64,000 bases of DNA from Monosiga brevicollis MX1 (taxonomy: Eukaryota): NCBI RefSeq assembly GCF_000002865.3, contig NW_001865086.1, forward strand, positions 97,447 through 161,446, in the 5' to 3' direction. Positions 5,544 through 63,749 of this stretch are shown here, in pieces. Within the stretch, counting starts at the first letter, position 1. The number at the start of each line of letters is the position of its first letter. A model generated the notes under the pieces. That model did not search any database. It saw nothing but the letters and a program-made list of their open reading frames with translations, and had not been told where the DNA came from. The position numbers and the translations under genes are program-made.

Positions 5544-6184
5544 GTAACCCGCCATATCCGCAGTCCAAGCTTGTTGTCCCTTGGACGTGTTTCGCGTAAA
5601 CATGTTGATATGATGTCTGTGGATGTTCCAGTCGTCTCCTCTCTTCTTCTCTGAACTTGAGCTCGTACCTGTCGCCTTGAAACCAAGTCGATTTTGATTT
5701 TGATTTTTGTTTTTTTTTCTTTACAATGTTAAAGAGAAAAGCACAGTGTGCTAAGCGCCGAAAGCCGTGAATGGAGCGGTCTTCGAAGCATCCTCAATGC
5801 CAGTGCGATGTCTGAAGGTTTGGCAGTTGGCAAGCATAAAGACGTATTTTGACTGGCAGGCAGACGCTTCCTTCACCTGCCTACGTCGCAGAGTTGCCAA
5901 GCGCGATCCAGAGAGTGCAGGGGTTGCGATGTGATGATCGCCCACACAAGCCGGGCGCCGAAATGAATCGTGAGGCACAGTTCGGCCTCTGTGATCTCAG
6001 AGTAAAGCGAGCACAACGCGCCGCGGACTTTGTGGCTGTGGCACGGGAAGAAGCCGAGATGATGCGCATCCAAGAACGATATTATTCACGCATCACTCCA
6101 GTCAGTCCACGGTCGCGTTCAAATGCTCAAAAGCGAATCATGCGAGCAGAGAGGAAAGGATCTCTCAACACCAAAACCCAATGT

Positions 6185-7400
6185 TCACACTGCCTCGAGT
6201 TTGGCATCATTCGATCGTGTATAGACCACCACCAGCTCGGGATAGATGTGTGTATGGTCGTAGATGGCCACCTGGTGAAATTCGCCACGCGGTGTAGCGA
6301 TAACCGAGTCATGTCTGTAGAAAAGGTCACAGGCAATCGTCGTGTCAGGTCCAAAGTCAACCAGAGGTACTCGCGGCTCAGAACCAACATGCAACGTGTC
6401 TGTCCGGCGCACCACTCATTGTCTGTTTGCGCCTGGCGAGAGCAGTGGGGCCAGTGCTCCACAAGGTGGTGCTTCATGGACCTAGGCATGACCCAACAGA
6501 ACTTGCGTGACAGTGAGCATGCGCTTGCCGTCGAGTCAACCGTTGGTGTACCGATGACTCTCTAAAGTCATACACAAAAGCGCATCTGGCATCAGACCAG
6601 CAGCCCATTTCGATCAAACCAGTCGCAGTTTCTAACCCCACCTTGCCAAAAATGATCGAACAAGTAAACACCGAAATCAAAACCGGTGGCTCGCGCGGCT
6701 ACCAGCAAAGCGCGGCCCAAGCGCACAATCTTATCGCGCAGCGATTGCTCGGACATGAAGCAGCCGGCGCTCTTGACAGGGTGTATCACGAAGCAAAGCT
6801 GGACAGCCCGAGAGCACATCCGAGGTGGTGGTTACAAGTCGATTATAGTGCCCCTAACTTGTGAGGCGGTGCAGCATCTTCCGTCGCTTGCTGCTGTACC
6901 GTTCCCACAGCACGGGGGTTTTGCACACGTGCCACCCGCTGCCCTGCAGCGTTACCTGGTCCTAGCCCGTCAGCACTCAGCTGCTGCAGCAGTTCAGCCA
7001 CCTAGTCACACAATAAATTCAAACCACACGGCTTGTCAAGATCAAAAGAACAGTATTATTATGACGATATCAGCAAGCAACGCACCTCTGACACGAGCTC
7101 GGGTGCGTCGCGTAAAACGTCAATGGCTGGCCCAACAACGTGGGCGTTGCACACTCTAGCCGGCGCTGAAGAGAGTTGGGCGCTGCTTGAGATTTGTTGC
7201 AAGCAGGCCCATGTTTCCTTGTACAAACCGCTCGTCGCGTCGCACATCTGCACACAAACGCCACATGTCAACAACAACAACAACAATAAGATTTGCCTCG
7301 GGCGAGAGGTCAGTCACTGGGTTCCAACTGTTGGAATTTCGCAAACTCCCAATGCTTCTCGGGTTGCTGTCAACTCGGCCATACTGCACTTTGCCATCTA
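6185..7400 (-). pseudogene. Pseudogenised 3' part (kinase end plus PARP exons) of the ANK-kinase-PARP gene family (copy C)
   Basis: Exon-by-exon homology to copies A and B (MCDATSGLYKE...[53 protein letters not shown]...LLGHA*; DSVIATPRGEFHQVAIYDHTHIYPELVV). In-frame stops, frameshifts and catalytic E to Q. Confidence 0.85.
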
Positions 7401-8281
7401 GTCCAAACAAAGCAAGCCACCACTGGGTGCATCAGTCGAGACAACATCTTGCTTTGCACATGGTCATTTGCTCGGCCGTGTCTCCAGAGTGCCAAGCTTG
7501 AGTGTGGATTAGGCTGCCAAGAGCGCTGGTCGTCTCGGCCAAGAGTCGATGAATTACTCATCCAGAAGGTCGTGGCGTACCTGAAGCGTTGGCCGATACA
7601 GGTACGTGGTCGTTTGTCGACGAAATGCAGCATAGTCGTCGGACGTGGCCAGCCTGCCTCGCTTCTCCAGCCAGCTACTCAGCCTGTGCTCCAGAAGCTT
7701 GCCCAGCAGCAAATACATGAATATCAGCATGCTGATTTCCTGGTCCATGGATGGAAAGGTATGCCGTTCATTCAGGGACAGCCAGCTGTCAGGCTCCACA
7801 GCATGTGAAAGGCCAGTTTGGGTTTGCGAGGAAGCGGGTCGTGTTGAGGAGGCGTTTTAAAAGAGGTTTGAGAGACGTCCATCGGGACGAAACAAGAGAT
7901 TTGGTGGTGTCTCGAGGTCAATTGAACCAGCTGCGGTCGGCAAGCATTCACAGTGACCAGACCAAGAGGTGTCACAACAAACAAACAAACAACAACGAAC
8001 AACGGTGAACAACAAGAATATCAGACAAGACTGTCTGCCAAGACATTGCAAAGTACACGAAGCACACGGGTCGACGCATGTGCCTCCTAGAGGAAGGGCA
8101 CGCCTCAGTTCGTGAAGGTGCGTATGTTAGTCAGGAAATGAAGTCGCACCAGCTCCATAGGGGCTCCTGTGGGAAGACCCATGGTAGATGACGCTGATTG
8201 TGTGCAAAAGCAACGGGGTGTCCATATGCGTGGGAAAGCGGCGGATTGGACGCGAACGACCACCGACTAGTCCAGCTCATC

Positions 8282-11200
8282 CTAATTGGCCGTGTAGTAT
8301 ACAACCAGCTCGGGATACATTTGGGCATTCTTAAACACCACCACCTCGTGGAATTCCCCAGAGGGTGTCGCGACGACCGAGTCATACCTAAAGAGAATTC
8401 AATGGCAAATGCAACCAGTCAGATCAGGTGGTGGACAGAGGTACCCTGCTGAAGGCAACATGCAATAGGCAGGCGATTTTGCCCGACGCACCGCTCGTTG
8501 TTGGGCGCAGCGGGCAGGAGCGGTGGCGCCAGCGCCCCAGAAGGAGGTGATGGATGGACAAAGGCATGACCCAACAGGGCTCGCGTGATGATGAGCATCC
8601 GTTCGCCGTTGGGTCCAGTATTGGTGTACCGGTGACTCTGAGATCATGTAAGCACATTGCGTCAGCACCACAGCACTTGGGTAAACAGGCGAGATTGACA
8701 GCCAGCGCAGCGCTGCCCTACCTTGCCGGGATGGTCCGTCAAGTAAACACCGAGACCGAATCGGTGGCCGACATTTTTACCCGCAAAGCGATAGTCAAGG
8801 CCCAGGCGCACAATCTTGTCGCGCAACATTGTGTCAGGGGCGATGCCGTGGAGCAACAGGCGCTCTTGACAGGATGCATCGCGAAGCAGAGCTGGAGAGC
8901 CCGAGGGTGCATCTAATGTGGACGTTTGGAGTTGATCATAGTGCTCTTCATTTTCGATACGATGCAACATCTCTCGTCGCTTGGCGCTGTAGCGCTCCCA
9001 CAGCACGGGGTTGTGCACGCGCTCCACTCGTTGCACTGTGATATTCGCTGGTCCCCGCCCATCGGTGTTCAGCTGCTTCAGTAGCTCACCCACCTAGCCA
9101 CCCAGTAGGTTCAAATCAGACGATTCGTGGAAGAGAGAAAAAAAATCACAAGCAACGCACCTCTGAAATGAGCTCGGGCGCATCGCGCAAGACATCAATG
9201 GCTGGCCCAACAACTTGGGTCGTGACAGGTCGTTCTGCGAATTGCCCGGCGCTGAAAAGGCTTGGCCGTTGCTTTGGATCTGCTGCCAGCAAGGCTTGCG
9301 TTTCCTTGTACAGATCGCCCACTATGTCGCACATCTGCACAGAAACACAGGTATGAGCAACTACAACGACAACGACGACGACGACGACAACCAGAGCGTC
9401 TTAAAATCATAGAGAAAAAAATAATAATTGACTGACCTCGGCCGCCAGATGAGGAAAGCTAAAGGCACCATCTCCCGCTTGGAAATTCCATCTGCAATGA
9501 CCCACAACCTCATCGGTTCGCGACTGAGCCGGCGGCACCGTTTGTGGGAACATGTAGGTGTTGTATAGCACACAGCCAAAGGAAAAGGCATCCTGTGCTG
9601 GACGCGCCCCCACTCGGCCCCGGCCAAAAAGCACTTCGGGTGCCACATAGCCCGCCGTGCCCGACGATGCGGTGGCCGTAGATGGTAGCATGGTGGCTTC
9701 AGCGGCGGCCTTGGCAATGTCAAAATCGCCCAGCCGCACAACAGGTTGGTCCTCTGCACCGTCCAACATGATGTTGCTCAGCTTGACATCCCGATGCACC
9801 AAGCCCTTGCTATGCATAAACGCCAGCGCCGTGCGCAGCTGATTCATCAGATTCGAAATCACGGTCGAGGTGGCCATGTGGCGTGCCTTGCTGAGCCACT
9901 GCTGCAGATCCCCCTGTGCACACCATGGCTGCACCAAATAGGCGCTCGGGTGGCCACTGTGTACGTCCACGAGCGCGCCGAGGACCGGGATGATGTGTGG
10001 GTGCTTAAGCTGGCGCATGGCGCGAAGCTCGCGCAAGAATGTACGGCACTGATCCTGCTTATGTTGGCGAGCAAATGCATACTCCTTGACGGCCAAATCT
10101 TGTTCCCCAGAATCTTTCAGCGCGGCACGGGCCTTGTACACCTTGTGGTTTTGGTTGTAATGAAGATCAAGCTGGCCCAGGCTGGAGAGCGACAATGTGC
10201 GATCCACTTCGGTCATGGCCTCCAAGATCAGGCTGGCTGGAAGGTCGGGCCCAAGCACTGTGCGGAGGCGCGCTCCCAGCCTGCTTTGTTCAGGGTGCAA
10301 AAAGACCAGCAGCGCTGGAAAGTGTTGGTGCAGCAGCTGAGCAAGCTCGGCGACGTGGTCCACGTGAGACTGATTTGATAATTGTTGTCGCAAGGTGTCG
10401 CGTCGCTTTTCTAGCTTTTTGAGGTCCTGCTCGAGACCAGACCGAACAGTTTCGGGCAGATGTTGTAGAGCCGTGTGAAATCCTTGAATCTCGGTCTCCA
10501 CCTTGGTTAGTTCCTCGTGGGCAGCAACCGATTCATCATCGACGTCTTGGTTTAAGCTGTCCACGTGCCTTATGCACGAGGTCAACACGGACAGCGTCGT
10601 GGCTTGCCAGTCGATCATGTCTTGCAACTGCTGCACCAGGGCTTGCGCCTCGTGAAGCGCAAACGCCAGATACCAATCTTGATTCTCATAGTCGTGCTCG
10701 ACTCTCCATGTTATCAGCTGCTCCAGGCCGTTCTGCTCGGGCAAGCTCAGCCTTTCGTGGGCTTGGCACAGCTCCTCCCAGGCCTTGGGCAATGCCTCGG
10801 CTGAAGGTGGTGCACTCACATCCAAGCCTTGCGCACACTGCTCTAGTGTGTCCACGCGATGGTCCGTGTCGGTGGCTCCCGCTCTTGCCACAGCACGCAG
10901 GGCAGTAATCAGCTTCAGCACTAGCTGCTGGAGGCTGCTGTTGGCGTTGGTGAACAGTTCTATGCGCTTGGCTCCCACGTCGCGTAGCATGGCAACTTTG
11001 TCCAGGGCTGCACTGAGGTTGGCGGGTGGCGTTTCGGGTGCCATTGTCAGCGTGGTGGGTGGAGCGGGGCACGCTGCCAGCACGTCCTGAAGCTCGAGAA
11101 GCACCGGCTGCAGCTCAAAACCAGCAGTGACATCATGCAGCTCTTGCAGCACTGCTTCTAGGTTGTCAGTGTTGGGGTCCAATTGACCCAAGCGGTTGTT

Positions 11201-13536
11201 CAACGCTTCGGGCGCTGCCAGTGCCTGGTCGAGCGCGCCGAGGGCCTGGGTGGTGGTCGCCTGGAAGGCAGGCCAGTCCATGGCAGGAAACTCTGGTGGC
11301 GCTTCATCGATGGTCCTCTGGATGTCCGCAACTGCCGTTGCAAGATTGGGGGTTTGTTTGGCGGCACCGCTGATAAATGCATCGAGGTGAGGGAGAGTAT
11401 GGCTGGTGGTGCGCGTGGGCAAGAGGGGCCTAAGCCAAGTATCCACCGCCACCACAACAGAGGCCGTGGTCTAATGGAGGGTTGTGTGGTGCCCATTGGT
11501 CGTGATGAGGTTGGATGAGGCCGTAGGAATTGGGGTAGTAAATGCATTGGGGAAAACAAGATGGGGGAGCAGGCTCACCTCGAGGGTGGGGGTGGTGGGC
11601 AGAGGCGGTAGCCAGGCGGAAGGCGGTGCCGGCGTGGGCGGAGCGAGTGGTGCGGGTGGTTGTGATAGGCGAGCCTCGTGAGCAGCAAACACGGGCTCCA
11701 GCTTGTCGCCATGCCCGCGTTGACGTCCGTAATCGAGGGGCGTGTTGCCATCCTGAAAACATGTGATTGGAGCGTGTGAGGTGGGCAGCGACGTGAGGGC
11801 TGAGTTGGGCGACGTGCATTTGCTTTTACATAACAAAGGCGAGGTGACAATGCTTTGAAGTGTGCCGGAGCCGCCAGACGCGCGAGTGGTGTGCAAATGG
11901 TGCGGGCAGGTAGCAGGGGTCCGAAAGGAGGCCCGCTTGGAGAGAAGGAAAAAAAAAAACGAAAAAAAAAAAGAAAGAAAGAAACGGCGCGTGTGCCGGG
12001 GGCAAAAGTGAAGGCACGGCCACCGAAAGCCGTTGGAGCGAGCGAGGGAGGCAGAGGCGTGATGACAAGGGGCTGGGGATGGATCAGAAAAAGGGGAGAG
12101 CGAAAACGGCAGGCGGAAGAGACAAGTGGGGCACGGGGCGCACCGGCAAAGGGCGGACGCAAAACGGGGAAAGAAGAGGGACAGCGGGAAAGAAGACAAG
12201 GAGCCAGGGGGGGAGAACGGACGCGCACGGGTGGGCAGGGTGTTGCGGAGAGGAGGGACGGGGGCAAAGGCGACGGGGCAGCGGGAGCAGGAGCAGCAGC
12301 CAGAGGGGTAAAGGGGGGAAGAGGGAGGTACTGTACTGACGTTGTCCTTGGCTTCAGTATCAACACCGTGCTCCAACAGCATCTCCGCCACCTTGACACG
12401 ACCGTTATAGCAGGCCCAGTGCAGTGGTGTATCGCCATACTGTGGGATGATGCATCAGCATGACGTACAGGTACAGCATCATCATCATCAGCATCATCAT
12501 GGGGTACAGGTGCACCGTCATAGGGGGGTAAAGGGGGAAAGAGGGAGGTACTGTACTGACGTTGTTCTTGGCTTTAGCATCAGCACCGTGCTTCAACAGC
12601 ATCTCCACCACCTTGACATGACCGTTACGGCAGGCCTTGTGCAGTGGTGTATCGCCACGCTGTGGGATGATGCATCAGCATGGCGTACAGGTACAGCATC
12701 ATCATCATCATCATCATGGGGTACGGGTGCAGCATCATATGGGGGGTAAAGGGGGGAAAGAGGGAGGTACTGTACTGACGTTGTCCTTGGCTTTAGCATC
12801 AGCACCGTGCTGCAACAGCATCTCCACCACCTTGACATCACCGTTACGGCAGGCCCAGTGCAGTGGTGTATCGCCATACTGTGGGATGATGCATCAGCAT
12901 GACGTACAGGTACAGCATCATCATCATCAGCATCATCATGGGGTACAGGTGCACCGTCATAGGGGGGTAAAGGGGGAAAGAGGGAGGTACTGTACTGACG
13001 TTGTTCTTGGCTTTAGCATCAGCACCGTGCTTCAACAGCATCTCCACCACCTTGACATGACCGTTACGGCAGGCCTTGTGCAGTGGTGTATCGCCACGCT
13101 GTGGGATGATGCATCAGCATGGCGTACAGGTACAGCATCATCATCATCATCATCATGGGGTACGGGTGCAGCATCATATGGGGGGTAAAGGGGGGGAAGA
13201 GGGAGGTACTGTACTGACGTTGTCCTTGGCTTTAGCATCAGCACCGTGCTGCAACAGCATCTCCACCACCTTGACATCACCGTTACGGCAGGCCCAGTGC
13301 AGTGGTGTATCGCCATGCTGTGGGATGATGCAAACATGCAATACACACTCCAGTGACATATTCAAAGTGTAACCAATATCACACAACATCATACCAAACA
13401 GCATACGTACCCGATCATCTTTGTATTGGGCAGCATCTCGTATACGTTGTTGGTCCCAACTGGTCAACAGCTGAAGCGCCTTTTGTGGATCTAATGTAAG
13501 ACACGCCATGTACAGCTGCTTTCCATCATCACTCAT
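8282..13536 (-). CDS. Ankyrin repeat - helical/coiled-coil - protein kinase - PARP-type ADP-ribosyltransferase fusion, copy A (about 1208 aa, 12 exons)
   Basis: Exons, all GT-AG and in frame: 13536-13411, 13317-13219, 13098-13000, 12878-12780, 12659-12561, 12439-12341, 11752-11579, 11470-9437, 9334-9161, 9093-8722, 8637-8492, 8387-8282. Motifs: GxTPLHxAC ankyrins; kinase [82 protein letters not shown]. Confidence 0.9.
12341..13317 (-). repeat. Tandem exon+intron array: five 99-nt ankyrin exons, period about 220 bp, with a 439-bp higher-order duplication
   Basis: Exon starts 13317, 13098, 12878, 12659, 12439; near-identical introns of 120/121/120/121 nt. Confidence 0.95.
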
Positions 13537-14394
13537 GGTCACGGTATCTCTCTCTATTCACCATCCGCTTCAAACCGCTTTGCTTGCTTCTCTATCCACC
13601 ACCAATCTCATGAGCCCCCTCCAAATACAACTCGTCTGACAACCCAGAATTCGGACTGGGATTCGACAGGCGCGCCGTTTCCAAAACGGCAGCCGGTCAG
13701 CGGGCTCCTTGCTCTTCTCTGCCTGGTGCACCAAACGACTCACCTTTGGACAACAGTTCTCGGTGACAGTGGCGAGGACCGGTGTACTTGGTTGCCCAGC
13801 GCACGTTGTCGACTGCGAGGTGAGATCAGTGAGGTCAACTGAAAGCAAAAAACAAAAAAATGGCAGCGGTGCTTTCAATCAAAACGTTCTGGCGTCGCTG
13901 CAAGGCCCCGACCAGGAAAGTCCGGTACCAAGCACAAACGATCAGTCACCACGCACACACACAGAAAGCAAGACACGTCAAGCAGCCCGCCGATGCCGAT
14001 ACCGATACCGACACCGCTGCCAAAAAAGGGCACCACCAACAACAAGAAGAAGAAGAAGAAGAAGACGAAGTCAAAAGCACAAGCAAAAGCAAAAGCAAAA
14101 GCAAAAGCAAAAGCAAAAGCAATGGCAAACAACCGAAAGGAAGAAAAATGCAAGCAACACAACACACACGTTTACACCTTTTTCTTCTTCTTTTTTAATT
14201 TTTTTATTTTCAAAGAAGAAAAGCACTGGACCGGGCTCATGGGTGGTAAGGACGGTTTGCGCCGGTCAATCGGATCGCCACGCCCAACGTACCTGCCAAA
14301 TCTATTGGCTCGGCCGATCGAGCCCCCGTGTATTTCTTTCTTCTGCGCACCAACCACACCCATAGAGAGTGTAATTCGTCTCAGTTTTATGTAT

Positions 14395-14560: not shown

Positions 14561-15215
14561 CACGCCTTGTGTACGAACAACGTGACAGCTCGCCTCTTAC
14601 ACCACAAAAATGGGGCTCGTACCTACAACATGTACTGCCCCTTTGCCAGCCATGCCATTCCAAGCCCGTTGGCTAACTTGCCTGGTCATACCAATCTTAT
14701 TCCCCGCCCAAACGTGAGCGACCATTCCTGACGGCGAGCTTTAGGTTCATCGCCATGGCGGTCATGGTGCTGCTCGTTCCCTTTGAACGCGCGTTTGCCT
14801 TCTGGAGCATTGCAACGGCAACCTTCACAAACCGATATATCTCCTGCAATAACTTACATCATCATTCCTAGCAGAAATACATTAACTTCTCGTATATCGA
14901 AATAAACGGTTTAAAGAAGAGTAAAAAACCCGAGGTGCATTTCCCCTGCAGCAACTTGCATCTTGTTCAACATTGCGAGGTTCGGGGCAGCAAGGGCAGC
15001 GGGTGACGGGACTGAGGAAGGGACGCGGGTGAGGAGCAAGTGTAGCAGAGACTCTTTTTAANNNNNNNNNNNNNNNNNNNNNNNNNNNNNNNNNNNNNNN
15101 NNNNNNNNNNNGTTTGGAAACCCCACCCCGACAGAAGACCCATCATGTTGCGCGCTTGTAAATTTAAAAATGGACACACTCGTATACAAGCGGGAGTTGG
15201 CCCTCCCCGGAGATT

Positions 15216-18090
15216 TCAATTGTAGGCGCGATCGCGGCCGTGGGGCTCGCTGAGCAACGCCTCGTAATTGTCCGGCCCTTGGGCCACAATGCCCAGAGGA
15301 TTGATCTTGCGATGGGAACCTACAGCAACATACAAAGCGCCAGAACACACACGCGCGCGCACACACAAACAATTGTGTCGTCAGCTCAGCTTGGACACGC
15401 TCATAAACCTTGGACACTTTGGCCTCAGCCCATCTCTCACGCGCTGTCGGCACGGATCGTACCAAAGTAGTGCTTCTTGGTCTCCAGCGGGTTAAACGTC
15501 GCGCTGACACCCTCCATCTGGTAAATCTCCCGCGTGTAGCCCCACAGGTTGGGGTAGTCCACCACGCGGCGCTTGTTGCACTTGAAATGGGTATGGTATA
15601 CGATATCAAAGCGCAGCTACTCATCCAATAACCCACACCAAATGAGCACATCGACATCACGTCGATTGGTGTGTGCGGTTGCTTTCGAGCCAAGGAAGAA
15701 AAAAAATAAAACGTACCAAGGTGGTGACCAAGCGAATGTCCGAAAGGGTCAGTCGGTCGCCACAGAGATAGCGCTGCTTGCCCAACAACGCCTCGACCTT
15801 GTCCAAAGCGTCAAACAGCTTGGTGCAGGCCGTATCGTAGGCTTCCTGGCTGCCCGCAAAGCCACAGCGATATACGCCCTGAAAATGGGCCCAGCACGAG
15901 ACACACGAGTTCAAATCAGCTGCACACCCCCAAAAACTCTGTTTTGATACAAGACAGTGTCTGCCACATACATCGTTGATGTTGGGATACACGAGCTCGT
16001 CAATCTCGGTCATGGCCGATTCCAAATCGGCCGGCTCCAGGTCCAGCTCGGGACGCTTGGCCAAATCGTTGAACTGTGAGTTGAACATGCCTAAAGGTCA
16101 AGGATATGTGCACGAGTCAGGCACCACACCAAGAGGTGAGCGCCACAAAGAGAACAGATCATCGGAAGAAATCCTCAAGTTGTCCTTGAAAAGGACAGAG
16201 GAAAGTTGTCTGATTGGGGTTTTTTTTTTTCTTTAAAGAAAAAAAGGCCAAGGGGTGGCGCGCGGGAGGCTTGGGGGCAGGCTGACGCACGGATGATTTC
16301 GCTGCTTTCATTGTTAACAATGGTCTAAAAAAATGATCGCGAGCCCGCGGCATGCTTGATGAGATTGCGTCCGGGACGCATTGCAGGCCCGTGGAGGATG
16401 AACCAACCTGAGTCTTCTTATCAAAGAGGACGGGCACGGAAAGCTTCTTGTACGGATAGCCGGGCTGTGCCAAATTGTAAACCTGGCAGATCATCGGTAC
16501 ATGATGGAAATAGGGTCATGAGGGCATACTGGAGTGTGATGCCGCNNNNNNNNNNNNNNNNNNNNNNNNNNNNNNNNNNNNNNNNNNNNNNNNNNCTGTC
16601 GCGGAACCTGTCATGGAGCCAATGACCACAATGGCTCCGCTCGCCTCGCACGTGATCCAGGGGTTCCGAGCAAACCTCCAGAAGAAGTCGCAACGCCTAC
16701 AGACTTTTGGCTTTGATCCTTACTTCTCGGCCTACATTGCTGTGACCATGCACATGAACCATCAGCTCAAGGCGAACCTGGCAGCAACCTGGTCTTCCCA
16801 TTGGGACCATGTCATGGTACCCTTCCTCGAAGGTGCCCTACACCGCAACCTTGCAAGTCCGGACATCACCCCAGCATCCTTGGAAGACGCCCGAGCCCAC
16901 CTGCACAAACAGTTTGGTTTCCACTTGGGAGTCGCCGCCCTGGCCCGAATGTTGGACGCTTCGACGAGCAATTTTACTGGACTCGCTGAGTTCGATGAGT
17001 GGGTGCAGGCGGTTGATTGCATGTTTCAGCACGAACCGCTTGAATACACCATGCTGACCAAGCTCCAGATGCTGTGCAAGCTCCAGCGCCAGTGCACTTG
17101 CAGCCGACTGGTGGAGCGTCTCGCCACTGCGGCACACCAGGCTACATCTGGTCCAGCAACCACGTTGACTAGAATCGTGAAAGAAGCTCTCGATGGTTAC
17201 GTCCCGACTCGTGATACTCTTTTCAGCGTGCCAAGCAACCGGACGGCGCACAAGGGGCCGACGATCCACTCGGCCGCCGGATGCCGCAAGCGGCCTCTGA
17301 AAGAATAGGCCAAGGAAGGTCTCGGAGGGGCAATGGCTGTTGCGTACGTCGTGAAGATACTCAAACTCTGGGTGAAGAGGATCGGGGTCCTCCTTGGTAA
17401 AGGGCCAGCCGCGGTAGGGCCGGCCATCATCGGGCCACTCCAGAAACCAGCCTAAAGCCGACGCGGGCCATGGAATAGCGCAGTGGTGTGGTGCCAACGG
17501 CGTGAGGGCAGGGCGTGGTCCTTGGGAAGTGTGGATGAGCAAAGCTGTGGCTGAGGGAGGAAGGGTGCGAAAAGCTAACCAAGCATGGTGACGGAGATGA
17601 CGTCTTCGAGGCCCTTGAGCGAGCGCATCAAGAGGGCGCGGTGGGCCCAGGGACAAGCCCATGCCACGTCTAAAAAGGATGGGCCGAGATGAGTCGCAAG
17701 GCACTTTCCAAAGCTCGAAGCACTGTCCAAAGCATGTGTGTGTGCATGCACGCGCAAGGCGAGGGGATGGCAAAAACACAGTCGAGACGCACAGAGGTGG
17801 TAGCGACCGGCTTCGGCCGGGTACTTTTCCGAGCCAATGGTGTCGTGAAAGGCCGTAGGGGGGCGACGAAAGGCACCAGCCTTGGCCTCTTCCTCAGACA
17901 CGCCAAATTTGTTTTGGTCCGAGCCCTCGACCTACGCACGAATTTGGAAAGAGCCAGCGTCAGAAGCTGCAAGTGGCCAGGATGGCAGACACCAATAGGC
18001 GAGAGCACCAACGTGGGCAAATTGATCCGAGGCAGTGGTGCCAAAGATGTCGCCTTGGCTGGCGCCGACGTTATCCTTGTTAGCAGCCAT
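15216..18090 (-). CDS. Glutathionyl-hydroquinone reductase / Xi-class GST (YqjG/ECM4 family), multi-exon
   Basis: [19 protein letters not shown] active site; [71 protein letters not shown]; stop TGA 15216-15218. Start exon MAANKDN (18090) is inferred. Spans an N gap. Confidence 0.9.
16596..17308 (+). other. Antisense ORF (at least 231 aa, open into the gap) nested in a GST intron; possibly a gag-like insertion
   Basis: Uninterrupted ORF inside intron 16483-17347, which is far longer than neighbouring introns. [14 protein letters not shown] loosely resembles the retrotransposon gag helix. Confidence 0.35.
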
Positions 18091-25281: not shown

Positions 25282-26764
25282 ATGGCGATGCTGATACTGC
25301 GTGTGCGCCACTGTGCTCATTTGAGGACTTGCCGCTGTAGGGCCTCGTCGCGTCGTCGCCATTGGCAGCACCACCACCTCCGTCCATTATCATCACACCA
25401 TCCGCTGCGCCAGCATCGGCTAGCACCAGCTGTCGCGGTGCAGGGCTGGGCAGCCCACGGCTCCTTGTTGCGCCGGAAGCAGCAGACAACCACCTAGGCC
25501 TTGCGGGTCTCAACAACAGACGCCATGACGCGTTCACGACATGGCAGCAGCAGTACGGCCAATGGCTCGGGCGAGGCGCCCGCAAAGCCCAAGCCCTGGC
25601 TCTGGATTATTAGCTACATGTTTTTCGCTGGTCTGTTGTCCCCTCGACCCTGACTCTGCCTTTGATGCTCTCCCTGGACCGATGATCACTCACAGCACAG
25701 TTGATCGCCGGCGTTGTTTCAGGCATGGACTCGATCTTGCTGCACGTGAATGACCGCGGCGACTGGCAGCCGCCCACAGCCCTCTATCTCTTTGTGTTCA
25801 TGGTGGGCGAGATGATGATCCTGCTGCCCTGCGCCCTGCTGCTCCGCAGCCGCGGTCGCGGTGGGTTCAAGGCACCGGCCGTGCGCACCGGTTTCATGGC
25901 TGGTGCGCTCAACGGCATTGGCGTTCTGGGCTTTGTCGCCCTCAACGGCATTGAAGAGGGTGAAGCCTCTAGCATCGCCCCCTTTAGTTCCCTCTACGTC
26001 CTCATTCCCATTCTCTACGGCCTCATTGTCCGGCGCGAGAAGCTCACCGCCCAAAAGGCCATCGGGGTTACCGTCGGCGTCCTCTCTACCGTCAGCTTTA
26101 TTTACAGCGGCTCCATCCCTCTCGGGGTCAATCGCCCCGACATTGTCCTTGCTGCCATGGCCTGCTTTGTTGGTGCGTTGCCACAGTATTCCAGACCCCC
26201 TCTCCCTTGTGGACATGCCCACAAGCATGGCCACACCTCGATACACATCCACACGCGCGCGCGCCTACATACACACACAGATGCCAATGCAATTTGACAT
26301 CCATTTCCATGTGGCGCTCATGTTTTACTCTCGTGTTTGCCTCTGTCCTAGGTTGGGGTGGGTGCATTCCATTTTATCACCACATGTCAACGTGGCCCGA
26401 GAGTAGCTTTGCCGCAGCCTACATTGTCAACATCCTGACCTTTGGGATGGTGGGTCTGGTGCCCACTCTGTTCACGGCGCCCATGCTGCCCGACGTCCGA
26501 GAGCTGGGCATGCTGGAAATTTTCAACCGCTCCAGAAACCTCTTGGGCGCCGGTGCTTGCGACGGCCTGTCCTCCCTGGCCTTTATTGCCATGTCCGCTG
26601 CCTACCCGGAAGACTCGGTTGTCGTCGGTACCCTCTCCAGCCTCTACGTCATCTTCCCCACCGTTGTTGGCCTGCTTTGGCTAGGTGAATCTCGGACCAC
26701 GGGCAAGATTGTTGCCGTGGCCCTTGGTCTCTTGTCCTCGGGTCTCCTAAGCGCCGAGGCCTGA
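25282..26764 (+). CDS. EamA/DMT-family membrane transporter (5' exon uncertain)
   Basis: Two homologous hydrophobic halves ending ASSIAPFSSLYVLIPILYGLIVRREKLT and SVVVGTLSSLYVIFPTVVGLLWLGESRT; intron about 26173-26351. Confidence 0.8.
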
Positions 26765-35367: not shown

Positions 35368-35702
35368 TGTAACGTCATGGCAGGCAACGAGGCAGTACAC
35401 GTTGTACGTTCAAGCGCCAGTTGTGCGGTGCTTTGGAAACCACTTGTAACAGGCGAGCTGTCATGTCGGGCAAAGGGGCGATACAGGTTGTACGTTCACA
35501 AGCCCCAATTTTGTGGTGCTCTAGAAGCTGCTCGTAACGGGTCATGTTTGGCAAAGGGGCAGTACACGTTGTACGTACACAAGCCCCAGTTTTACAGCAC
35601 CTTGGAAGCTGCTCGTAACAGGCGAGCTGTCATGCCAGGCAAAGGGGCAGTCCACGTTGATACGAACACAAGCTTGACGGCGCTTTGGAATTTGCTTGTA
35701 AG
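35368..35702. repeat. Degenerate tandem repeat, four units of about 78-88 bp
   Basis: Units start GTAAC near 35369, 35446, 35534 and 35615 and share GTCATG..GGCAAAGGGGC..TACACGTTGTACG..CAAGC. Confidence 0.8.
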
Positions 35703-36372: not shown

Positions 36373-37959
36373 ATGAGTGCTGATGGAGAGCAGCTGTTCA
36401 GTGCGTGTTGTTCATCAGATCCACAAAAGGCGCTGCAGCTGTTGACCAGTTGGGACCAACAACGTATACGAGATGCTGCCCAATACAAAGGTGGTTGGGT
36501 ACGTATGCTGTTTGGTATGATGTTGTGTGATACTGGTTACACTTTGAATATGTCACTGGATGGGGTGACGTTATGGTATAACATGGGACATATACTGCAT
36601 GTTTGCATTTTGCCACAGATTGGCCATACACCACTGCACGGGGCCTGCATTAACGGTCATGACAAGGTGGTGGAGATGCTGTTGAAGCACGGTGTTGATA
36701 CTAAAGCCAAGGACAACGTCAGTACAGTACCTCCCTCTTCCCCCCCTTTACCCCCCCCTATGATGATGCACCCGTACCCCATGATGATGATGATGATGAT
36801 GCTGCTGTACCTGTACGTCATGCTGATGCATCATCCCACAGGGTGGCCGTACACCACTGCACGATGCCTGCGATAACGGTCATGACAAGGTGGTGGAGAT
36901 GCTGTTGCAGCACGGTGCTGATGCTAAAGCCAAGGACAACTCGGTCAGTACAGTACCTCCCTCTTCCCCCCTTTACCCCCCCTATGATGCTGCACCCGTA
37001 CCCCATGATGATGATGATGCTGATGCTGTACGTCATGCTGATGCATCATCCCACAGAATGGCTATACACCACTGCACAATGCCTGCTATCACGGTCATGT
37101 CAAGGTGGTGGAGATGCTGTTGAAGCACGGTGCTGATACTGAAGCCAAGACCAACGTCAGTACAGCACCTCCCTCTTCCCCCCTTTACCCCCCTCTATGA
37201 TGGTGCACCCGTACCCCATGATGATGATGATGCTGTACCTGTACGTCATGCTGATGCATCATCCCACAGGGTGGCCAAACACCACTGCACTATGCCTGCG
37301 ATAACGGTCATGACAAGGTGGTGGAGATGCTGTTGAAGCACGGTGTTGATACTGAAGCCAAGGACAACGTCAGTACAGTACCTCCCTCTTTCCCCCCTTT
37401 ACCCCCCCTATGATTTTGCACCTGTACCTCATGATGATGATGCTGATGCTGTACCTGTACGTCATGCTGATGCATCATCCCACAGGGTGGCTATACACCA
37501 CTGCACGGGGCCTGCATTAAGGGTCAAGTCAAGGTGGTGAAGATGCTGTTGAAGCACGGTGTTGATACTGAAGCCAAGGACAACGTCAGTACAGTACCTC
37601 CCTCTTCCCCCCTTTACCCCTCTGACTGCTGCTCCTGCTCCCGCTGCCCCGTCGCCTTTGCCCCCGTCCCTCCTCTCCGCTACACCCTGCCCACCCGTGC
37701 GCGTCCGTTCTTCCCCCCTGACTCCTTGTCTTCTTTCCCGCTGTCCCTCTTCTTTCCCTTTTTTTCTTCCGCGCTTTGCCGGTGCTCCCCGCGCCCCGCC
37801 CTGCTCCCGCTGGTGTCTTCCGCCTGCCGTTTTCGCTCTCCCCTTTTTCTGATCCATCCCCAGCCCCTTGCCATCACGCTTCTGCCTCCCTCGCACGCTC
37901 AAGCGACTTTCGGTGGCCGTGCCTTCACGTTTGCATCCAACACACGCGCCGTTTCTTTC

Positions 37960-37993
<34 letters not shown>

Positions 37994-40900
37994 CTTCTCT
38001 CCAAGCGCGCCTCCGTTCGGACCCCTGTTACCTGCCCGCACCATTTGCACACCACTCGCGCGTCTGGCGGCTCCGGCCCACTTCAAAGCATTGTCACCTC
38101 GCCTTTGTTATGTAAAAGCAAATGCGCGTCGCTGCCCACCTCACACGCTCAAATCACATGTTCTCAGGGTGGCGAAACGCCCCTCGATTACGGACGTCTA
38201 TGCGGGCATGGCGACAAGCTGGAGCCCGTGTTTGCTGCTCACGAGGCTCGCCTATCACAACCACCCGCACCACTCGCTCCGCCCACGCCGGCACCGCCTT
38301 CCGCCTGGCTACCGCCTCTGCCCACCACCCCCACCCTCGAGGTGAGCCTGCTCCCCCATCTTGTTTCCCCCAATGCATTTACTACCCCAATTCCCACGGC
38401 CTCATCCAACCTAATCACGACCAATGGCACCACAACCCTCCATTAGACCACGGCCTCTGTTGTGGTGGCGGTGGACAAGTGGCTCAAGCCGCTCTTGCCC
38501 ACGCGCACCACCAGCCATACTCTCCCCCACCTCGATGCCTTTATCAGAGGTGCCGCCAAACAAAACCCCAATCTTGCAACGGCGGTTGCGGACATCCAGA
38601 TGACCATCGATGAAGCGCCACCAGAGTTTCCCGTCATGGATTGGGCTGCCTTCCAGACGACTACCACCCAGGCTCTCAACACACTCGACCAGGCACTGGC
38701 AGCGCCCGAAGCGTTAAGCAACCGCTTGAAGCAATTGGACCCCAACACTGACAACCTAGAATCAGTGCTGCAAGAGCTGCACGGTGTCACTGCTGGTTTT
38801 GAGCTGCAGCCGGTGCTTCTCGAGCTTCAGGACGTGCTGGCAGCGTGCCCCGCTCCACCCACCACGCCAGTGATCGCGCCCAAGAAGCCACCCACCGACC
38901 TAGCTTCGGCCCTGAGAAAAGTCATCGTTCTGAGCGGCGTGGAACCCAAGCGTCAGGAGCTGCTCACCAGCGCCAACAGCAACCTCAAGCGCCTCGTGCT
39001 GGCCTTGATTGATGCCCTGGGCGCCGTGGCAAGAGCGGGAACTACCGACACAATTCATCGCGTGGAGACGCTACGGCAGTGCGCGCAATGCGTGGATGCA
39101 AGTGCACCACCTCCAGCCGAGGCATTGCCCGGGGCCTGGGAGGAGCTGTGCCAAGCGCACGAGAAGCTGAGCCTGCTCGAGCAGAACGGTCTTGAGCAAA
39201 TTGCTCAGTGGCAACCACCTCCAGACTACGAGCATCAGGATTGGTACTTGGCGTTTGTGCACCACGAGTCGCAAGCTCTGCTGCAGCAGTTGCAAGACAT
39301 GATCGACTGGCAGGCCACGACGCTCTCCGTGTTGACCTCGTGCATGAGTCACGTGGACAGCTTGACCCAAGGCGTTGATGATGAATTGGTTGCTGCCAAC
39401 GAGGAACTGACCAAGGTGGAGAATGAGATGCAAGGTATCAGCGCGGCATTGCAGCTGGTGCCCGAAGCTGTTCGGTCTGGTCTCGAGCAGGAACTCAAAA
39501 AGCTAGAAACGCGACGCGACACCTTGCGACAACAGTTATCAGATCAGCCACACGTGGACCACGTCGCAGAGCTCGCCCAGCTGCTGTACCAACACTTTCC
39601 AGCGCTGCTGGTCTTTCTGCACCCTGAACAAAGCACGCTGGGAGCGCGCCTCCGCACAGTGCTTGGGCCCGACCTTCCAGCCAGTCTTATCTTGGAGGCC
39701 ATGACCGAAGTGGATCGCACATTGTCGCTCTCCAGCCTGGGCCAGCTTGATCTTCATTACAACCAAAACCACAAGGTGTACAAGGCCCGTGCCGCGCTGA
39801 AAGATTCTGGGGAACAAGATTTGGCCGTCAAGGAGTATGCATTTGCTCGGCAACACAAGCAGGATCAGTGCCGTACATTCTTGCGCGAGCTTCGCGCCAT
39901 GCGCCAGCTTCAGCACCCACACATCATCCCGGTCCTCGGCGCGCTCGTGGACGTACACAGTGGCCACCCGAGCGCCTACCTGGTGCAGCCATGGTGTGCA
40001 CAGGGTGATTTGCAGCAGTGGCTCAGCAAGGCACGGCACCTGGCCACCTCGACCGTGATTTCGAATCTGATGAATCAGCTGCGCACGGCGCTGGCGTTTA
40101 TGCATAGCAAGGGCTTGGTGCATCGGGATGTCAAGCTGAGCAACATCATGTTGGACGGTGCAGAGGACCAACCTGTTGTGCGGCTGGGCGATTTTGACAT
40201 TGCCAAGGCCGCCGCTGAAGCCACCATGCTACCATCTACGGCCACCGCATCGTCGGGCACGGCGGGCTATGTGGCACCGGAGGTGCTATTTGGAATGGGT
40301 CGTGTGGGAGCACGCCCGGCACAGGATGCCTTTTCCTTTGGCTGCGTTCTCTACAACACGTACATGTATCCACAAACGGTGCCACCTGCTCAATCGCGAA
40401 CCGATGAGGTTGTGGGTCATTGCAGATGGAATTTCCAAGCGGGAGATGGTGCCTTTAGCTTTCCTCATTTGGCGGCCGAGGTCAGTCAATTATTATTTTT
40501 TTCTCTATGATTTTAAGACGCTCTGGTTGTCGTCGTCGTCGTCGTTGTTGTTGTAGTTGCTCATACCTGTGTTTCTGTGCAGATGTGCGACATAGTGGGC
40601 GATCTGTACAAGGAAACGCGAGCCTTGCTGGCAGCAGATCCAAAGCAACGGCCAAGCCTTTTCAGCGCCGGGCAAATCGCAGAACGACCTGTCACGACCC
40701 AAGTTGTTGGGCCAGCCATTGATGTCTTGCGCGATGCGCCCGAGCTCATTTCAGAGGTGCGTTGCTTGTGATTTTTTTTTCTCTCTTCCACGAATCGTCT
40801 GATTTGAACCTACTGGGTGGCTAGGTGGGTGAGCTACTGAAGCAGCTGAACACCGATGGGCGGGGACCAGCGAATATCACAGTGCAACGAGTGGAGCGCG

Positions 40901-41651
40901 TGCACAACCCCGTGCTGTGGGAGCGCTACAGCGTCAAGCGACGCGAAATGTTGCATTGCATCAAAAGTCAGGAGCACTATGATCAACTCCAAACGTCCAC
41001 ATTAAATGCACCCTCGGGCTCTCCAGCTTTGTTTCGAGATACACCCTGTCAAGAGCGCTTGTTGCTTCACGGCATCGCCCCTGACACAATGTTGCGCGAC
41101 AAGATTGTGCGCCTGGGCTTTGACTATCGTTTCGCCGGTCGCCGCAGGGGCCACAAGTATGGTCTTGGCGTTTACTTGGCCGACCATCCTAGAAAGGTGT
41201 GGTCGAATTGTTGGTTTGCAGGGTTCTACGTGTGTGTCCTCACATTGCTTTTTTGGCGCTGTGTGTCTACTTGAACCTGGGTGTAGAGTCACCATTATGC
41301 GACGCCCGGAGCAAACGGCGAGCGGATGCTCATTATTACGCGAGCCCTGTTGGGCCGTGCCTATGTCCATCCTTCGCCTCGTTCTCGGGCACTGGCTCCT
41401 CCACTGCTGCCCGCTGCACCCAACAACGAGCGGTTCGTCGAACAAAATTTTCTGATTCTGGCATGCTGCCCGACGTCTCCTGCCCGCCTTCTGCCCGTCT
41501 TCTGACCTAGCCTGACCTAACCGCCACGTCTGCCTTTTCTTTTAGATATGATTCGGTCATCGCGACGCCGCTCAATGCGTTTCGCGAGGTGATTATCTTT
41601 GAGAATGCTCAAATCTATCCTGAGCTGGTGGTGTACTACACGGCCGATTAG
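36373..41651 (+). CDS. Ankyrin repeat - helical/coiled-coil - protein kinase - PARP-type ADP-ribosyltransferase fusion, copy B (about 1209 aa, 12 exons)
   Basis: Exons 36373-36498, 36619-36717, 36842-36943, 37057-37155, 37270-37368, 37486-37584, 38168-38341, 38447-40480, 40583-40756, 40825-41196, 41287-41432, 41546-41651. Same motifs as copy A ([51 protein letters not shown]). Confidence 0.9.
36619..37584 (+). repeat. Tandem exon+intron array: five ankyrin exons (99, 102, 99, 99, 99 nt)
   Basis: Each exon is flanked by CCACAG and GTCAGTACAG; introns of 124/113/114/117 nt differ mainly in C-run and (GAT)n length. Confidence 0.95.
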
Positions 41652-46800: not shown

Positions 46801-48032
46801 CACGGATGAGCCCACGGATGAGCCCACTACGGAGGAAGAGACGCGCCCTCGAACCACTACCAGGGTCACGCGCGCGCCAACGACAACACAGCGTCCCGTT
46901 GTGACTACTACGAGCGCCGCCACTCGCCCGATGACGACGGGACGTCCCGACGGTCCCACGGCCGAGGCCCCTACCGATGAGCCCACGACGGAGGAGCCAG
47001 ATACTCGTGCGACCACTCGTGTAACGGCTCAGCCCACGCGCCCCGCCACCACTCGCCGCCCCGACGGACCAACCGATGAGCCCACGACGGAGGAGCCAGA
47101 GACCCGCGAGACCACTCGTGCCACACGCCCTGCCACCACTCGCCGCCCTGATGGGCCAACCAACGAGCCACCTACGGACGAGCCAACCATGGAGCCAACG
47201 GAGGAGGCTACGGACGAGCCGACCATGGAGCCAACAGAAGAGGCCACGGGTGAGCCGACCATGGAGCCAACAGAAGAGGCCACGGGTGAGCCGACCATGG
47301 AGCCGACGGGAGAGGCCACCGCCGAACCCACCAACGAGACTGAATGTGCCTTCTTCCAACCTTGCGACTGTGCCGATACCGAGACCGAGTTTTTGTCCGA
47401 GGATGCCGATGGCTGTCTGACTTGTGCCTGCCGCAACGCCAGCTGCCCACCCGTCGAGCCATGCAGGTTTGTTCTTCAGTGTCGTCTTCTTATTCATGAC
47501 GCCTCCCGTGCTTTTGAGCCAATTGTAGTTGCCACATGGCGCGCTGCCTCGTGTGTTCTGACCTCATGAAACGCTTGTTATCTGCCCGTGTGTGCTGTAG
47601 CTGTGGCGTTGATACATTCCCCGTCACTACCCAGGATGAGTTTGGGTGCGAGACGTGCTCATGCGTCAACCTGACGGGTGCTGAGATGGCGGGTGAGAGT
47701 GCCCTTGAAGAGGATGACTCGAGCAACGGATCGGACAATGGCACGGGCATTATCGTTGCGATTGTTGGCGGTGTTGCCCTGGTTGTACTAGCCGTTGTGG
47801 CCGTGGTCGTGGCTCGGTACGTCTTGTTGCTCGGCTCGCGCAGGGTGGGGTGTCATGGCTTCAGACTCACGCTTGCATGGGAATGCTTAGGTCGCGTTCT
47901 CAAGCCAAGCGCGCCTCTTCGTTTGAAGCCCAGAACCTGGAGTTTGATGAGCTTCAATCGGGGGACGCCGTCGTGCCCATTGCACCTGCAGCAGCTGGTT
48001 CGGAGGGCCTTGAATACGACGAGAACATCTAA
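43818..48032 (+). CDS. Type I mucin-like cell-surface protein with Cys-rich modules
   Basis: Signal peptide MLLRLVLTLAVATTAVHA; FCGNG...ETC|DDGN...GDGCS..C (Myxococcus-type Cys repeat/DUF4215-like); several antistasin-like D..GC..C.C modules; a furin-like Cys module; Thr-rich and (ST)n stalks; TM GIIVAIVGGVALVVLAVVAVVVA; short tail ending GLEYDENI. Spans an N gap. Confidence 0.8.
46222..46720 (+). repeat. Coding (ACCTCG/ACTTCC)n hexamer repeat encoding poly(Thr-Ser)
   Basis: Read directly; synonymous variation among units; gap 46323-46421. Confidence 0.9.
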
Positions 48033-63236: not shown

Positions 63237-63749
63237 TTTAATCTAGCAGAACGTCGGCGGTTGCGAGGAATCGGATATGGTGGGGGAGGGAGGACAGGCC
63301 GATCAGGAAAGATGCGTGCGTCGTGCGATGTTTTGGACTTGCGTGTCCCGGTTCGAAAAAACGACGTGTGGGAGGGCTCGCGAGGGAACAGCGTACTGGG
63401 GGGGGAGGCAGGGATCGTTGGCAAGCCGTGCTTGTTGAGGGTTTAGCTGATGCCTTGCTTGAGGGTGCGTGCTTGCTCTGTAGCAGTACGTGGTCGAGAC
63501 GGGTCAGGCCAAGCCAGGGGGGTGCCAATCACGGTGGTGAAGACGCGGCGAAATCCTAAGAATTGACACCAAGGTATCAAGAAAGAAGGATACGCAAGGG
63601 GGTTGGGGCAAGCACGACGACGTTTGGGGCACGTGGTGAGCCGGACGCGAAAACGGTTTTATTTTTTAAAAACATCAACAGCGAGGGCGCTTGCGCAGCA
63701 GCAGCAAATCAAGGACATGCTTGCAGGTTGATCGAGTAATGGAGTGGAG

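What the first reader, a model, noticed from the sequence alone, without database searches (positions are those of the whole stretch)
12341..13317. One repeat per phase-0 exon: a cassette array suited to shuffling or skipping
Seen: each internal ankyrin repeat is one 99-nt exon (one is 102 nt) bounded by CCACAG and GTCAGTACAG, in near-identical introns that carry slippage-prone (GAT)n and C runs. Any exon can be skipped, duplicated or swapped without breaking frame. Established: single-repeat exons under shuffling are known in brown algal ROCO-LRR and NB-ARC-TPR genes. Inference: unequal crossover and/or alternative splicing could generate a binding repertoire.
Basis: partly seen in the sequence, partly recalled or inferred. 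Interest (0 to 1): 0.75.

Follow-up and report, generated by a model that had tools for sequence, protein, structure and literature searches.

The report
Choanoflagellate ankyrin exon cassette repertoire
In a single-celled relative of animals, a large gene family builds its ankyrin binding domain from near-identical one-repeat exons that differ almost only at residues predicted to touch a ligand, likely giving a recombining set of sensors wired to kinase and PARP domains; exon skipping was looked for and not shown.

Summary
Real. Window 12341-13317 (minus strand) holds five 99-nt phase-0 exons, one ankyrin repeat each, in a 12-exon Monosiga brevicollis gene: ankyrin, helical region, Ser/Thr kinase, PARP. 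The 102-nt exon lies in a second paralogue (36373-41651), not here. At least 24 related gene models exist; no named relative outside this species was found. Across the window's ten repeat exons all 32 alternative codons change the amino acid, none is silent, and exons differ more than their introns; variation peaks at hairpin and first-helix positions. Gene A's order is ABABC, explained by one 439-nt unequal crossover, possibly inside an exon. RNA contigs join at predicted splice sites; no clean skip was seen, but paralogues swamp the test. Best reading: inherited diversification by unequal crossover and gene conversion under diversifying selection, like brown-algal ROCO/TPR and fungal NLR repeats, without their nucleotide-binding domain. 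A sensing or defence role is inferred, untested. This scan reported the same family before on other DNA of this genome (e1-8068253, e1-8068251).

The parts
13411..13536 (-). Gene A exon 1: start codon and N-terminal cap of the ankyrin domain (42 codons)
   Evidence: same start as public model MONBRDRAFT_30380
13219..13317 (-). Ankyrin exon A1 (99 nt, phase 0/0)
13000..13098 (-). Ankyrin exon A2 (99 nt; identical to A4)
12780..12878 (-). Ankyrin exon A3 (99 nt; equals the start of A5 joined to the rest of A1, join anywhere in bases 1-30)
12561..12659 (-). Ankyrin exon A4 (99 nt; identical to A2)
   Evidence: RNA joints of family members at both ends
12341..12439 (-). Ankyrin exon A5 (99 nt)
12440..13317 (-). 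Two 439-nt copies of a two-exon, two-intron unit, differing at 2 positions (13317/12878 and 13196/12757); longest exact repeat 347 nt
11579..11752 (-). Exon 7: C-terminal cap-like repeat and proline-rich linker
   Evidence: no Pfam hit; intron 7 joint 11470/11579 in RNA contigs
9437..11470 (-). Exon 8: family-specific helical region (about 430 aa) and Ser/Thr kinase domain
   Evidence: Pkinase E 7.5e-37; 100% identical to MONBRDRAFT_30380; helical region has 8 hits among 1.84 billion representatives
9161..9334 (-). Exon 9: end of kinase domain, linker
8282..9093 (-). Exons 10-12 (9093-8722, 8637-8492, 8387-8282): PARP catalytic domain and stop codon
   Evidence: Pfam PARP E 1.5e-5 on exon 10 alone, just under the curated cut-off; aligns to PARP15/PARP14/tankyrase-2
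36373..41651 (+). Gene B: intact paralogue, same 12-exon layout, five all-different ankyrin exons (36619-36717, 36842-36943 [102 nt], 37057-37155, 37270-37368, 37486-37584)
   Evidence: exact exon 1 to exon 2 joint in two RNA runs
6180..7290 (-). Degenerate third copy: kinase end and PARP exons with stops and frameshifts

Best explanation
This is the ankyrin array of an ankyrin-helical-kinase-PARP gene of Monosiga brevicollis, one repeat per 99-nt exon, whose exon-plus-intron units are likely exchanged by unequal crossover and gene conversion while selection likely diversifies the residues predicted to bind ligand. Shown: the gene structure, the two-unit duplication, the absence of silent variants, the concentration of changes at a few codons, a family of at least 24 gene models. 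Inferred: near-identical 213-223-nt units (introns included) pair out of register within a gene and between paralogues, so repeat number and order change and codons are re-assorted, always in frame; new binding surfaces are favoured, as in a natural library of designed-ankyrin-like binders. Inferred and untested: ligand binding, probably of foreign molecules from prey bacteria or viruses, would switch on the kinase and ADP-ribosyltransferase. The repertoire is likely spread over many inherited paralogues rather than made by splicing of one gene.
For: Open 1208-codon frame over 12 canonical exons. Ten window exons: 14 of 33 codons vary, 32 alternative codons, all amino-acid changing, no synonymous variant; mean pN 0.144, pS 0.0055 over 36 pairs of the 9 distinct exons; array introns p = 0.038. 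In 7 distinct exon+intron units, 27 exon changes against 13 expected at the intron rate (Poisson P 4.6e-4). 47 distinct family repeats: positions 1, 3, 8, 11, 12 have 11-14 residue types (2.9-3.5 bits). In a confident model of a spliced relative (P0041, mean pLDDT 83) positions 1 and 3 precede helix 1 and 8, 11, 12 lie in it; inner helices and hairpin are the binding face in PMC4986451 (passages); the same columns 3, 8, 11, 12 differ among repeats of a designed ankyrin protein (6mol). A versus B: pS 0.004 in the array, 0 in exon 7, but 0.21-0.27 in exon 8's helical part, 0.14 in the kinase, 0.30 in PARP, a patchwork expected of conversion. Dimer duplication with 2 differences in 439 nt; 15 of 27 site pairs four-gamete incompatible. 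24 M. brevicollis models hit by exon 8 (5 of 10 hits, 19 of 19). The same cap and repeat occur in short proteins without kinase. RNA contigs join at predicted intron ends. Kinase lysine motif, HRD motif and PARP His and Tyr motifs are kept across most models.
Against: No ligand, phenotype or induction data; the sensing role rests on analogy. No allele or strain comparison was possible, so ongoing repeat-number change is not shown. Low divergence between A and B is not confined to the array: introns 1-9 are all 0-5.5% apart, so homogenisation may be regional. Four-gamete failures could be recurrent mutation at selected codons. The exon-internal crossover rests on one base at a hypervariable codon and leaves one intron difference unexplained. 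No orphan or inverted repeat exons lie in the window (10 of 10 hits are in the two arrays), unlike Ectocarpus ROCO genes. The kinase has DFD for DFG and no clear glycine-rich loop, so its activity is uncertain. Only 9 distinct exons were available as DNA, and no codon-model test was run. The pattern used to collect the 47 repeats fixed several framework positions, so their low entropy is partly built in.
Confidence: 0.68

Rival explanations
1. Alternative splicing (skipping of repeat exons) adds a second, per-cell layer of diversity, as reported for brown-algal ROCO genes.
For: All repeat exons are symmetric phase 0 with identical splice signals. ROCO genes give up to nine isoforms with different LRR exon sets (PMC11378527, section read). 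One search lists long joints from an ankyrin exon to exon 7 (11712/12779, 11701/12848) and go-back joints.
Against: The 11712/12779 joint carries a cap-exon start that differs from gene A's, and both go-back joints shown carry 37-40 foreign letters, so they are transcripts of paralogues; 11701/12848 ends inside exons on both sides and is unresolved. At 100% likeness on gene B, 3 RNA runs gave one exact joint, the canonical exon 1 to exon 2, and one joint with 15 foreign letters. Bilaterians have significantly higher skipping frequencies than unicellular holozoans (PMC6142364, passages). The test is weak: only 1 of gene B's 7 canonical joints in the stretch was listed, and 39 of 54 joints were not shown.
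Confidence: 0.17
2. A recently amplified repeat homogenised by neutral concerted evolution; the variable codons reflect relaxed constraint on surface residues, with no recognition role.
For: Family is species-restricted in the searches run and includes a broken copy; homogenisation extends over introns 1-9.
Against: Relaxed sites cannot change faster than neutral ones, yet exon changes are twice the intron-rate expectation (27 versus 13) and six codons (chosen after seeing the data) hold 20 of the 27; no silent variant among at least 33 base changes (P about 2e-4 if changes fell at random); frames and catalytic motifs stay intact in A and B.
Confidence: 0.07
3. Gene A's ABAB order is an assembly error (a three-repeat array expanded, or two haplotypes merged); the rest of the reading stands.
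For: The two 439-nt copies share a 347-nt exact repeat; the assembly has gaps within 2 kb; no contig spans the array.
Against: The copies differ at two positions, one in an exon and one in an intron; 347 nt is shorter than a typical Sanger read (recalled); gene B independently has five repeats.
Confidence: 0.08

Closest known systems
Ectocarpus LRR-ROCO and NB-ARC-TPR candidate pathogen receptors (Zambounis et al., PMC3341825, parts 2-5 of 7 read; Teng et al., PMC11378527, abstract and one discussion section read)
   Same: One repeat per equal-length exon, clustered paralogues with broken copies, repeat order not conserved between paralogues, amino-acid change concentrated on the predicted binding face, a signalling domain attached.
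   Different: Ankyrin rather than LRR or TPR; kinase plus PARP rather than ROC-COR or NB-ARC; introns short (113-124 nt) and themselves about 96% alike, so the whole exon+intron unit is a tandem repeat; no orphan or inverted exons in this window; splice isoforms not shown; a choanoflagellate.
Fungal NLRs with highly conserved ANK/TPR/WD repeats (Dyrka et al., PMC4986451, passages read)
   Same: Ankyrin repeats with high internal identity, concerted evolution and positive selection on inner helices and hairpin.
   Different: No NACHT/NB-ARC domain here; repeats are N-terminal and each is a separate exon; repeat-number polymorphism between isolates, shown in Podospora, could not be tested.
Tankyrases and other ankyrin-PARP proteins (PMC2964712 and PMC4245714, passages read)
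   Same: Ankyrin repeats and a PARP domain in one chain; PMC4245714 notes in one sentence that this pairing occurs in M. brevicollis and arose several times.
   Different: Five repeats rather than 15-18, no SAM domain detected, a kinase and a long helical region in between, fast rather than conserved evolution.
Designed ankyrin repeat proteins (DARPins; PDB 6mol and others; PMC8229355, passages read)
   Same: Constant 33-residue framework between caps, variable surface positions, many aromatic and charged.
   Different: Natural, intron-separated, fused to enzymes; diversity from recombination and selection rather than synthesis.

Membership tests
Ectocarpus-type exon-shuffled receptors (ROCO-LRR, NB-ARC-TPR) | Each repeat encoded by one exon of equal length and symmetric phase | tested here: met
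   10 of 10 repeat exons in genes A and B are 99 or 102 nt, phase 0/0
Ectocarpus-type exon-shuffled receptors (ROCO-LRR, NB-ARC-TPR) | Clustered paralogues with gene birth and death | tested here: met
   Two intact genes and one degenerate copy within 36 kb; 24 models
Ectocarpus-type exon-shuffled receptors (ROCO-LRR, NB-ARC-TPR) | Repeat order scrambled between recent paralogues; local duplications | tested here: met
   No A exon has a counterpart in B closer than 10 differences while flanks are about 95% alike; 439-nt duplication in A
Ectocarpus-type exon-shuffled receptors (ROCO-LRR, NB-ARC-TPR) | Orphan, inactivated or opposite-strand repeat exons in introns | tested here: not met
   tblastn of the window finds only the 10 coding exons; rest of the genome not held
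Ectocarpus-type exon-shuffled receptors (ROCO-LRR, NB-ARC-TPR) | Diversifying selection on the predicted binding face | tested here: met
   pN 0.144 versus pS 0.0055; 27 versus 13 expected; positions in hairpin and helix 1; counting tests only
Ectocarpus-type exon-shuffled receptors (ROCO-LRR, NB-ARC-TPR) | ROC-COR or NB-ARC domain; LRR or TPR repeats | tested here: not met
   Pfam on 9 of gene A's 12 exons and precomputed domains of the public model give Ank, Pkinase, PARP only
Ectocarpus-type exon-shuffled receptors (ROCO-LRR, NB-ARC-TPR) | Alternative splicing of repeat exons | tested here: inconclusive
   No clean skip; contigs only, dominated by paralogues
Fungal NLR with highly conserved repeats | NACHT or NB-ARC nucleotide-binding domain | tested here: not met
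Fungal NLR with highly conserved repeats | At least 85% internal identity over 100 or more residues | tested here: met
   A1-A4 (132 aa) differ by 0-5 of 33 residues, read; A5 and gene B repeats are further apart; the paper's own program was not run
Fungal NLR with highly conserved repeats | Repeat-number polymorphism between isolates | not testable with these tools
   Only short contigs available; none spans an array
Tankyrase | 15-18 ankyrin repeats followed by SAM and PARP | tested here: not met
   5 repeats plus caps; no SAM hit; kinase present (definition)
Active Ser/Thr protein kinase | Catalytic lysine, HRD-x-x-x-x-N, DFG, glycine-rich loop | tested here: inconclusive
   Lysine motif and HRD motif kept; DFD instead of DFG in 21 of the 24 models with HRD (27 examined); no clear glycine-rich loop; kinase pN 0.008 versus pS 0.14 between A and B
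PARP-type ADP-ribosyltransferase | His-Tyr-Glu triad | tested here: met
   His and Tyr motifs align with PARP15; a Glu motif is present in exon 12 of gene A and matched in 8 of 27 models; that this Glu is the triad residue is recalled, activity untested

The most novel reading that the evidence does not exclude
Monosiga keeps a genome-wide pool of interchangeable ankyrin exon+intron cassettes, shared between kinase-PARP effectors and short ankyrin-only proteins, that recombines fast enough to give new receptors within clonal populations: an anticipatory non-self recognition repertoire with ADP-ribosylation as output, in the sister group of animals.
Probability: 0.15. Interest if true: 0.88.

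Novelty: new variant of a known kind. Interest (0 to 1): 0.6.

Why it matters
Repeat-cassette receptors under diversifying selection are described in brown algae and fungi; the searches run here found no description of such a family in choanoflagellates, only a one-line mention of ankyrin-PARP proteins in M. brevicollis. If it is a sensor family, it gives the closest relatives of animals a variable receptor repertoire with an unusual kinase-plus-PARP output, in a cultured species where long reads, knock-outs and pull-downs can test it. It is also a natural counterpart of designed ankyrin libraries. Practically, public gene models of the family read through the array introns and miss exons, which has hidden the pattern.

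Tried and rejected
No whole genome is held, so paralogue DNA outside the window could not be read; a 25-nt exon-intron boundary pattern found 0 matches in metagenome contigs and 0 in viral contigs. Sequencing runs were all contigs (24 listed, 20 holding part); 6 distinct runs were laid. Gene A was laid only over 11400-12900, so exons 1-3 of it were not tested. In one search, bins inside gene B's introns 2-5 had little or no cover in the three RNA runs (0-53) while the DNA-like run covered them (34-2231); this fits efficient splicing, but missing cover is no evidence by itself. Summed contig depth suggests many more copies of the repeat unit than of the long intron but is not a copy number. The AlphaFold model of exon 8 was too poor to use (mean pLDDT 43.7); no fold search was run. 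The protein atlas did not answer, so remote relatives of the helical region remain open. Templated mutagenesis of the diversity-generating-retroelement kind was considered because third codon positions are nearly constant; rejected because this follows from the lack of silent change, no intron-free template lies in the window and no reverse transcriptase was seen among the 11 other frames scanned. Intron retention as a diversity source was rejected: 4 of 8 array introns carry an in-frame stop and the other 4 shift the frame. A Fisher test on six post hoc chosen codons is not used as evidence. Two searches for papers on single-exon ankyrin repeats returned nothing; that vertebrate ankyrin genes have 99-nt repeat exons is recalled only. 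PMC5100051, PMC2805694 and PMC8602657 (passages) held nothing on this family. No supplements were read; those of PMC4245714 and of kinome surveys may list these genes.

Full report
Observation. The stretch 12305-13332 is a tandem array of period 220 (and 439). On the minus strand it holds five 99-nt exons, each preceded by CCACAG and followed by GTCAGTACAG. Three of the five were scanned and each matches one Pfam Ank repeat end to end; the other two are identical or one base away from scanned ones. The exon-like pattern occurs 10 times in the window and never in 10 shuffles.

The gene. Twelve exons with GT-AG introns give an open frame of 1208 codons (gene A, 13536 to 8282) and 1209 codons (gene B); 10 of 11 introns are phase 0 in both. 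Order of domains: N-cap, five ankyrin repeats, cap-like repeat and proline-rich linker, about 430 residues of family-specific sequence, Ser/Thr kinase (E 7.5e-37), PARP (aligns to PARP15, PARP14, tankyrase-2). Exon 8 is 100% identical to Monosiga brevicollis model MONBRDRAFT_30380. It hits 24 models of this species (5 of 10 hits, the other 5 being generic kinases at 26-36%; 19 of 19). The helical region hits 8 of 1.84 billion representatives, 7 named M. brevicollis models and one unnamed 66-residue fragment. Public models often read through the array introns, so their repeat counts cannot be trusted.

Expression and splicing. All runs found were assembled contigs. On 11400-12900 at 90% likeness, run X3 gave 13 of the 15 joints shown (54 in all): the predicted intron 7, the A4/A5 intron, six at the A3/A4 intron, two go-backs ending at an exon end, two long joints to exon 7 and one inside exon 7. 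Many carry letters foreign to gene A, since 562 contigs from many paralogues were laid; they confirm where the family splices but not gene A's own isoforms. On gene B at 100% likeness the only exact joint was the canonical exon 1 to exon 2, in X3 and X5. No clean skip was seen. Sensitivity is low, so skipping is neither shown nor excluded; bilaterians skip exons significantly more than unicellular holozoans (PMC6142364, passages).

Sequence pattern. Among the ten repeat exons 14 of 33 codons vary; there are 32 alternative codons and every one changes the residue. Mean pN is 0.144 and pS 0.0055 over the 9 distinct exons; array introns differ at 0.038. Taking 7 distinct exon+intron units, exons show 27 changes where the intron rate predicts 13 (P 4.6e-4; the intron rate is inflated by alignment noise near the short repeats, which makes this cautious). 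Across 47 distinct repeats collected from the window and from 24 stored family proteins scanned, positions 1, 3, 8, 11 and 12 carry 11-14 residue types. In a model of the spliced relative P0041 (mean pLDDT 83) these fall just before and within helix 1, the surface described as the ankyrin binding face in PMC4986451; the same columns differ between repeats of a designed ankyrin protein.

Recombination. Gene A's order is ABABC. The two 439-nt dimers differ at two bases. A3 equals the first 1-30 bases of A5 joined to the rest of A1, so one out-of-register crossover in a three-repeat ancestor yields the present array with one intron base left over; the placing of the crossover inside the exon rests on a single base. 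Fifteen of 27 informative site pairs fail the four-gamete test. Between A and B silent divergence is 0.004 in the array and 0 in exon 7 but 0.14-0.30 in most downstream coding blocks, and introns 1-9 are at most 5.5% apart while introns 10-11 are about 30% apart: conversion in patches, with the array inside one. The (GAT)n and C runs vary in length but nothing ties them to exchange. No stray repeat exons lie in the window.

Mechanism. Shown: structure, duplication, biased substitution pattern, family size, splicing of the family at these sites. Inferred: unequal crossover and gene conversion among near-identical exon+intron units change repeat number and re-assort variable codons; selection favours new binding surfaces. 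Inferred and untested: the array senses variable, probably foreign, ligands and controls the kinase and PARP. The kinase keeps its lysine and HRD motifs but has DFD for DFG; the PARP keeps His and Tyr motifs and a candidate Glu.

Comparison. It works like the Ectocarpus ROCO-LRR and NB-ARC-TPR genes (PMC3341825; PMC11378527) and like fungal NLRs with highly conserved ankyrin repeats (PMC4986451), but it is a member of neither: it lacks their nucleotide-binding domains and, in this window, orphan exons. It is not a tankyrase (definition in PMC2964712). PMC4245714 mentions ankyrin-PARP proteins in M. brevicollis in one sentence. Four searches (listings seen) found no account of this family's exon cassettes; subscription journals are largely outside the library.

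Earlier notes. After my reading was fixed, the scan's notes showed the same family on other pieces of this genome (e1-8068253, e1-8068251). They agree; they are not independent evidence. This report adds the traceable duplication, the intron-calibrated test, the kinase-free class sharing the cassette, and the negative but weak skip test.

Verdict. A real feature and a new variant of a known kind: recombination-driven, selection-shaped ankyrin cassettes on a kinase-PARP protein in a choanoflagellate. Interest 0.6.

Noticed in passing
window 36373-41651 (+) against 8280-14221 (-): Gene B is an inverted paralogue of gene A, 88% identical over about 6 kb including some 700 nt upstream; identity is patchy (introns 1-9 at most 5.5% apart, introns 10-11 about 30%), as expected of conversion tracts.
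   Followed up: yes
window 6180-7290 (-): Degenerate kinase-end plus PARP copy just downstream of gene A; the public model MONBRDRAFT_30380 fuses part of it on, reads through two array introns and so misses exons.
   Followed up: partly
proteins P0041, P0043, P0060, P0068, P0080, P0135: A second class of short proteins shares the N-cap and the same ankyrin repeat (several models read through the same intron) but ends in a short tail with no kinase; P0041 is an unnamed record on a 1093-nt contig with four uninterrupted repeats. P0043's accession is next to that of a helical-PARP model, P0153. Possible decoys or partners.
   Followed up: partly
window exon 1 (13411-13536) and exon 7 (11579-11752): The cap exons also differ between A and B almost only by amino-acid changes (12 versus 1 silent; 5 versus 0).
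   Followed up: partly
protein P0004 (MONBRDRAFT_34748): This model joins pieces resembling window frames 982-1980 and 16838-17893 to a kinase-PARP paralogue on a contig of the same length as gene A's, suggesting the whole neighbourhood is duplicated nearby.
   Followed up: no
window 35373-35673 and 14600-14739: Diverged 81-nt tandem repeat upstream of gene B with a partial match upstream of gene A.
   Followed up: no
run X18 on window 11400-12900: A run labelled as another organism carries this family with some fixed differences from the window; possibly another strain or a co-culture.
   Followed up: no
window 61593-63242 (-); 25686-26294 (+); 44353-47569 (+): Forkhead-domain frame and EamA-like transporter frame; long Thr/Ser-rich mucin-like repeats with a duplicated Cys-rich motif.
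   Followed up: no
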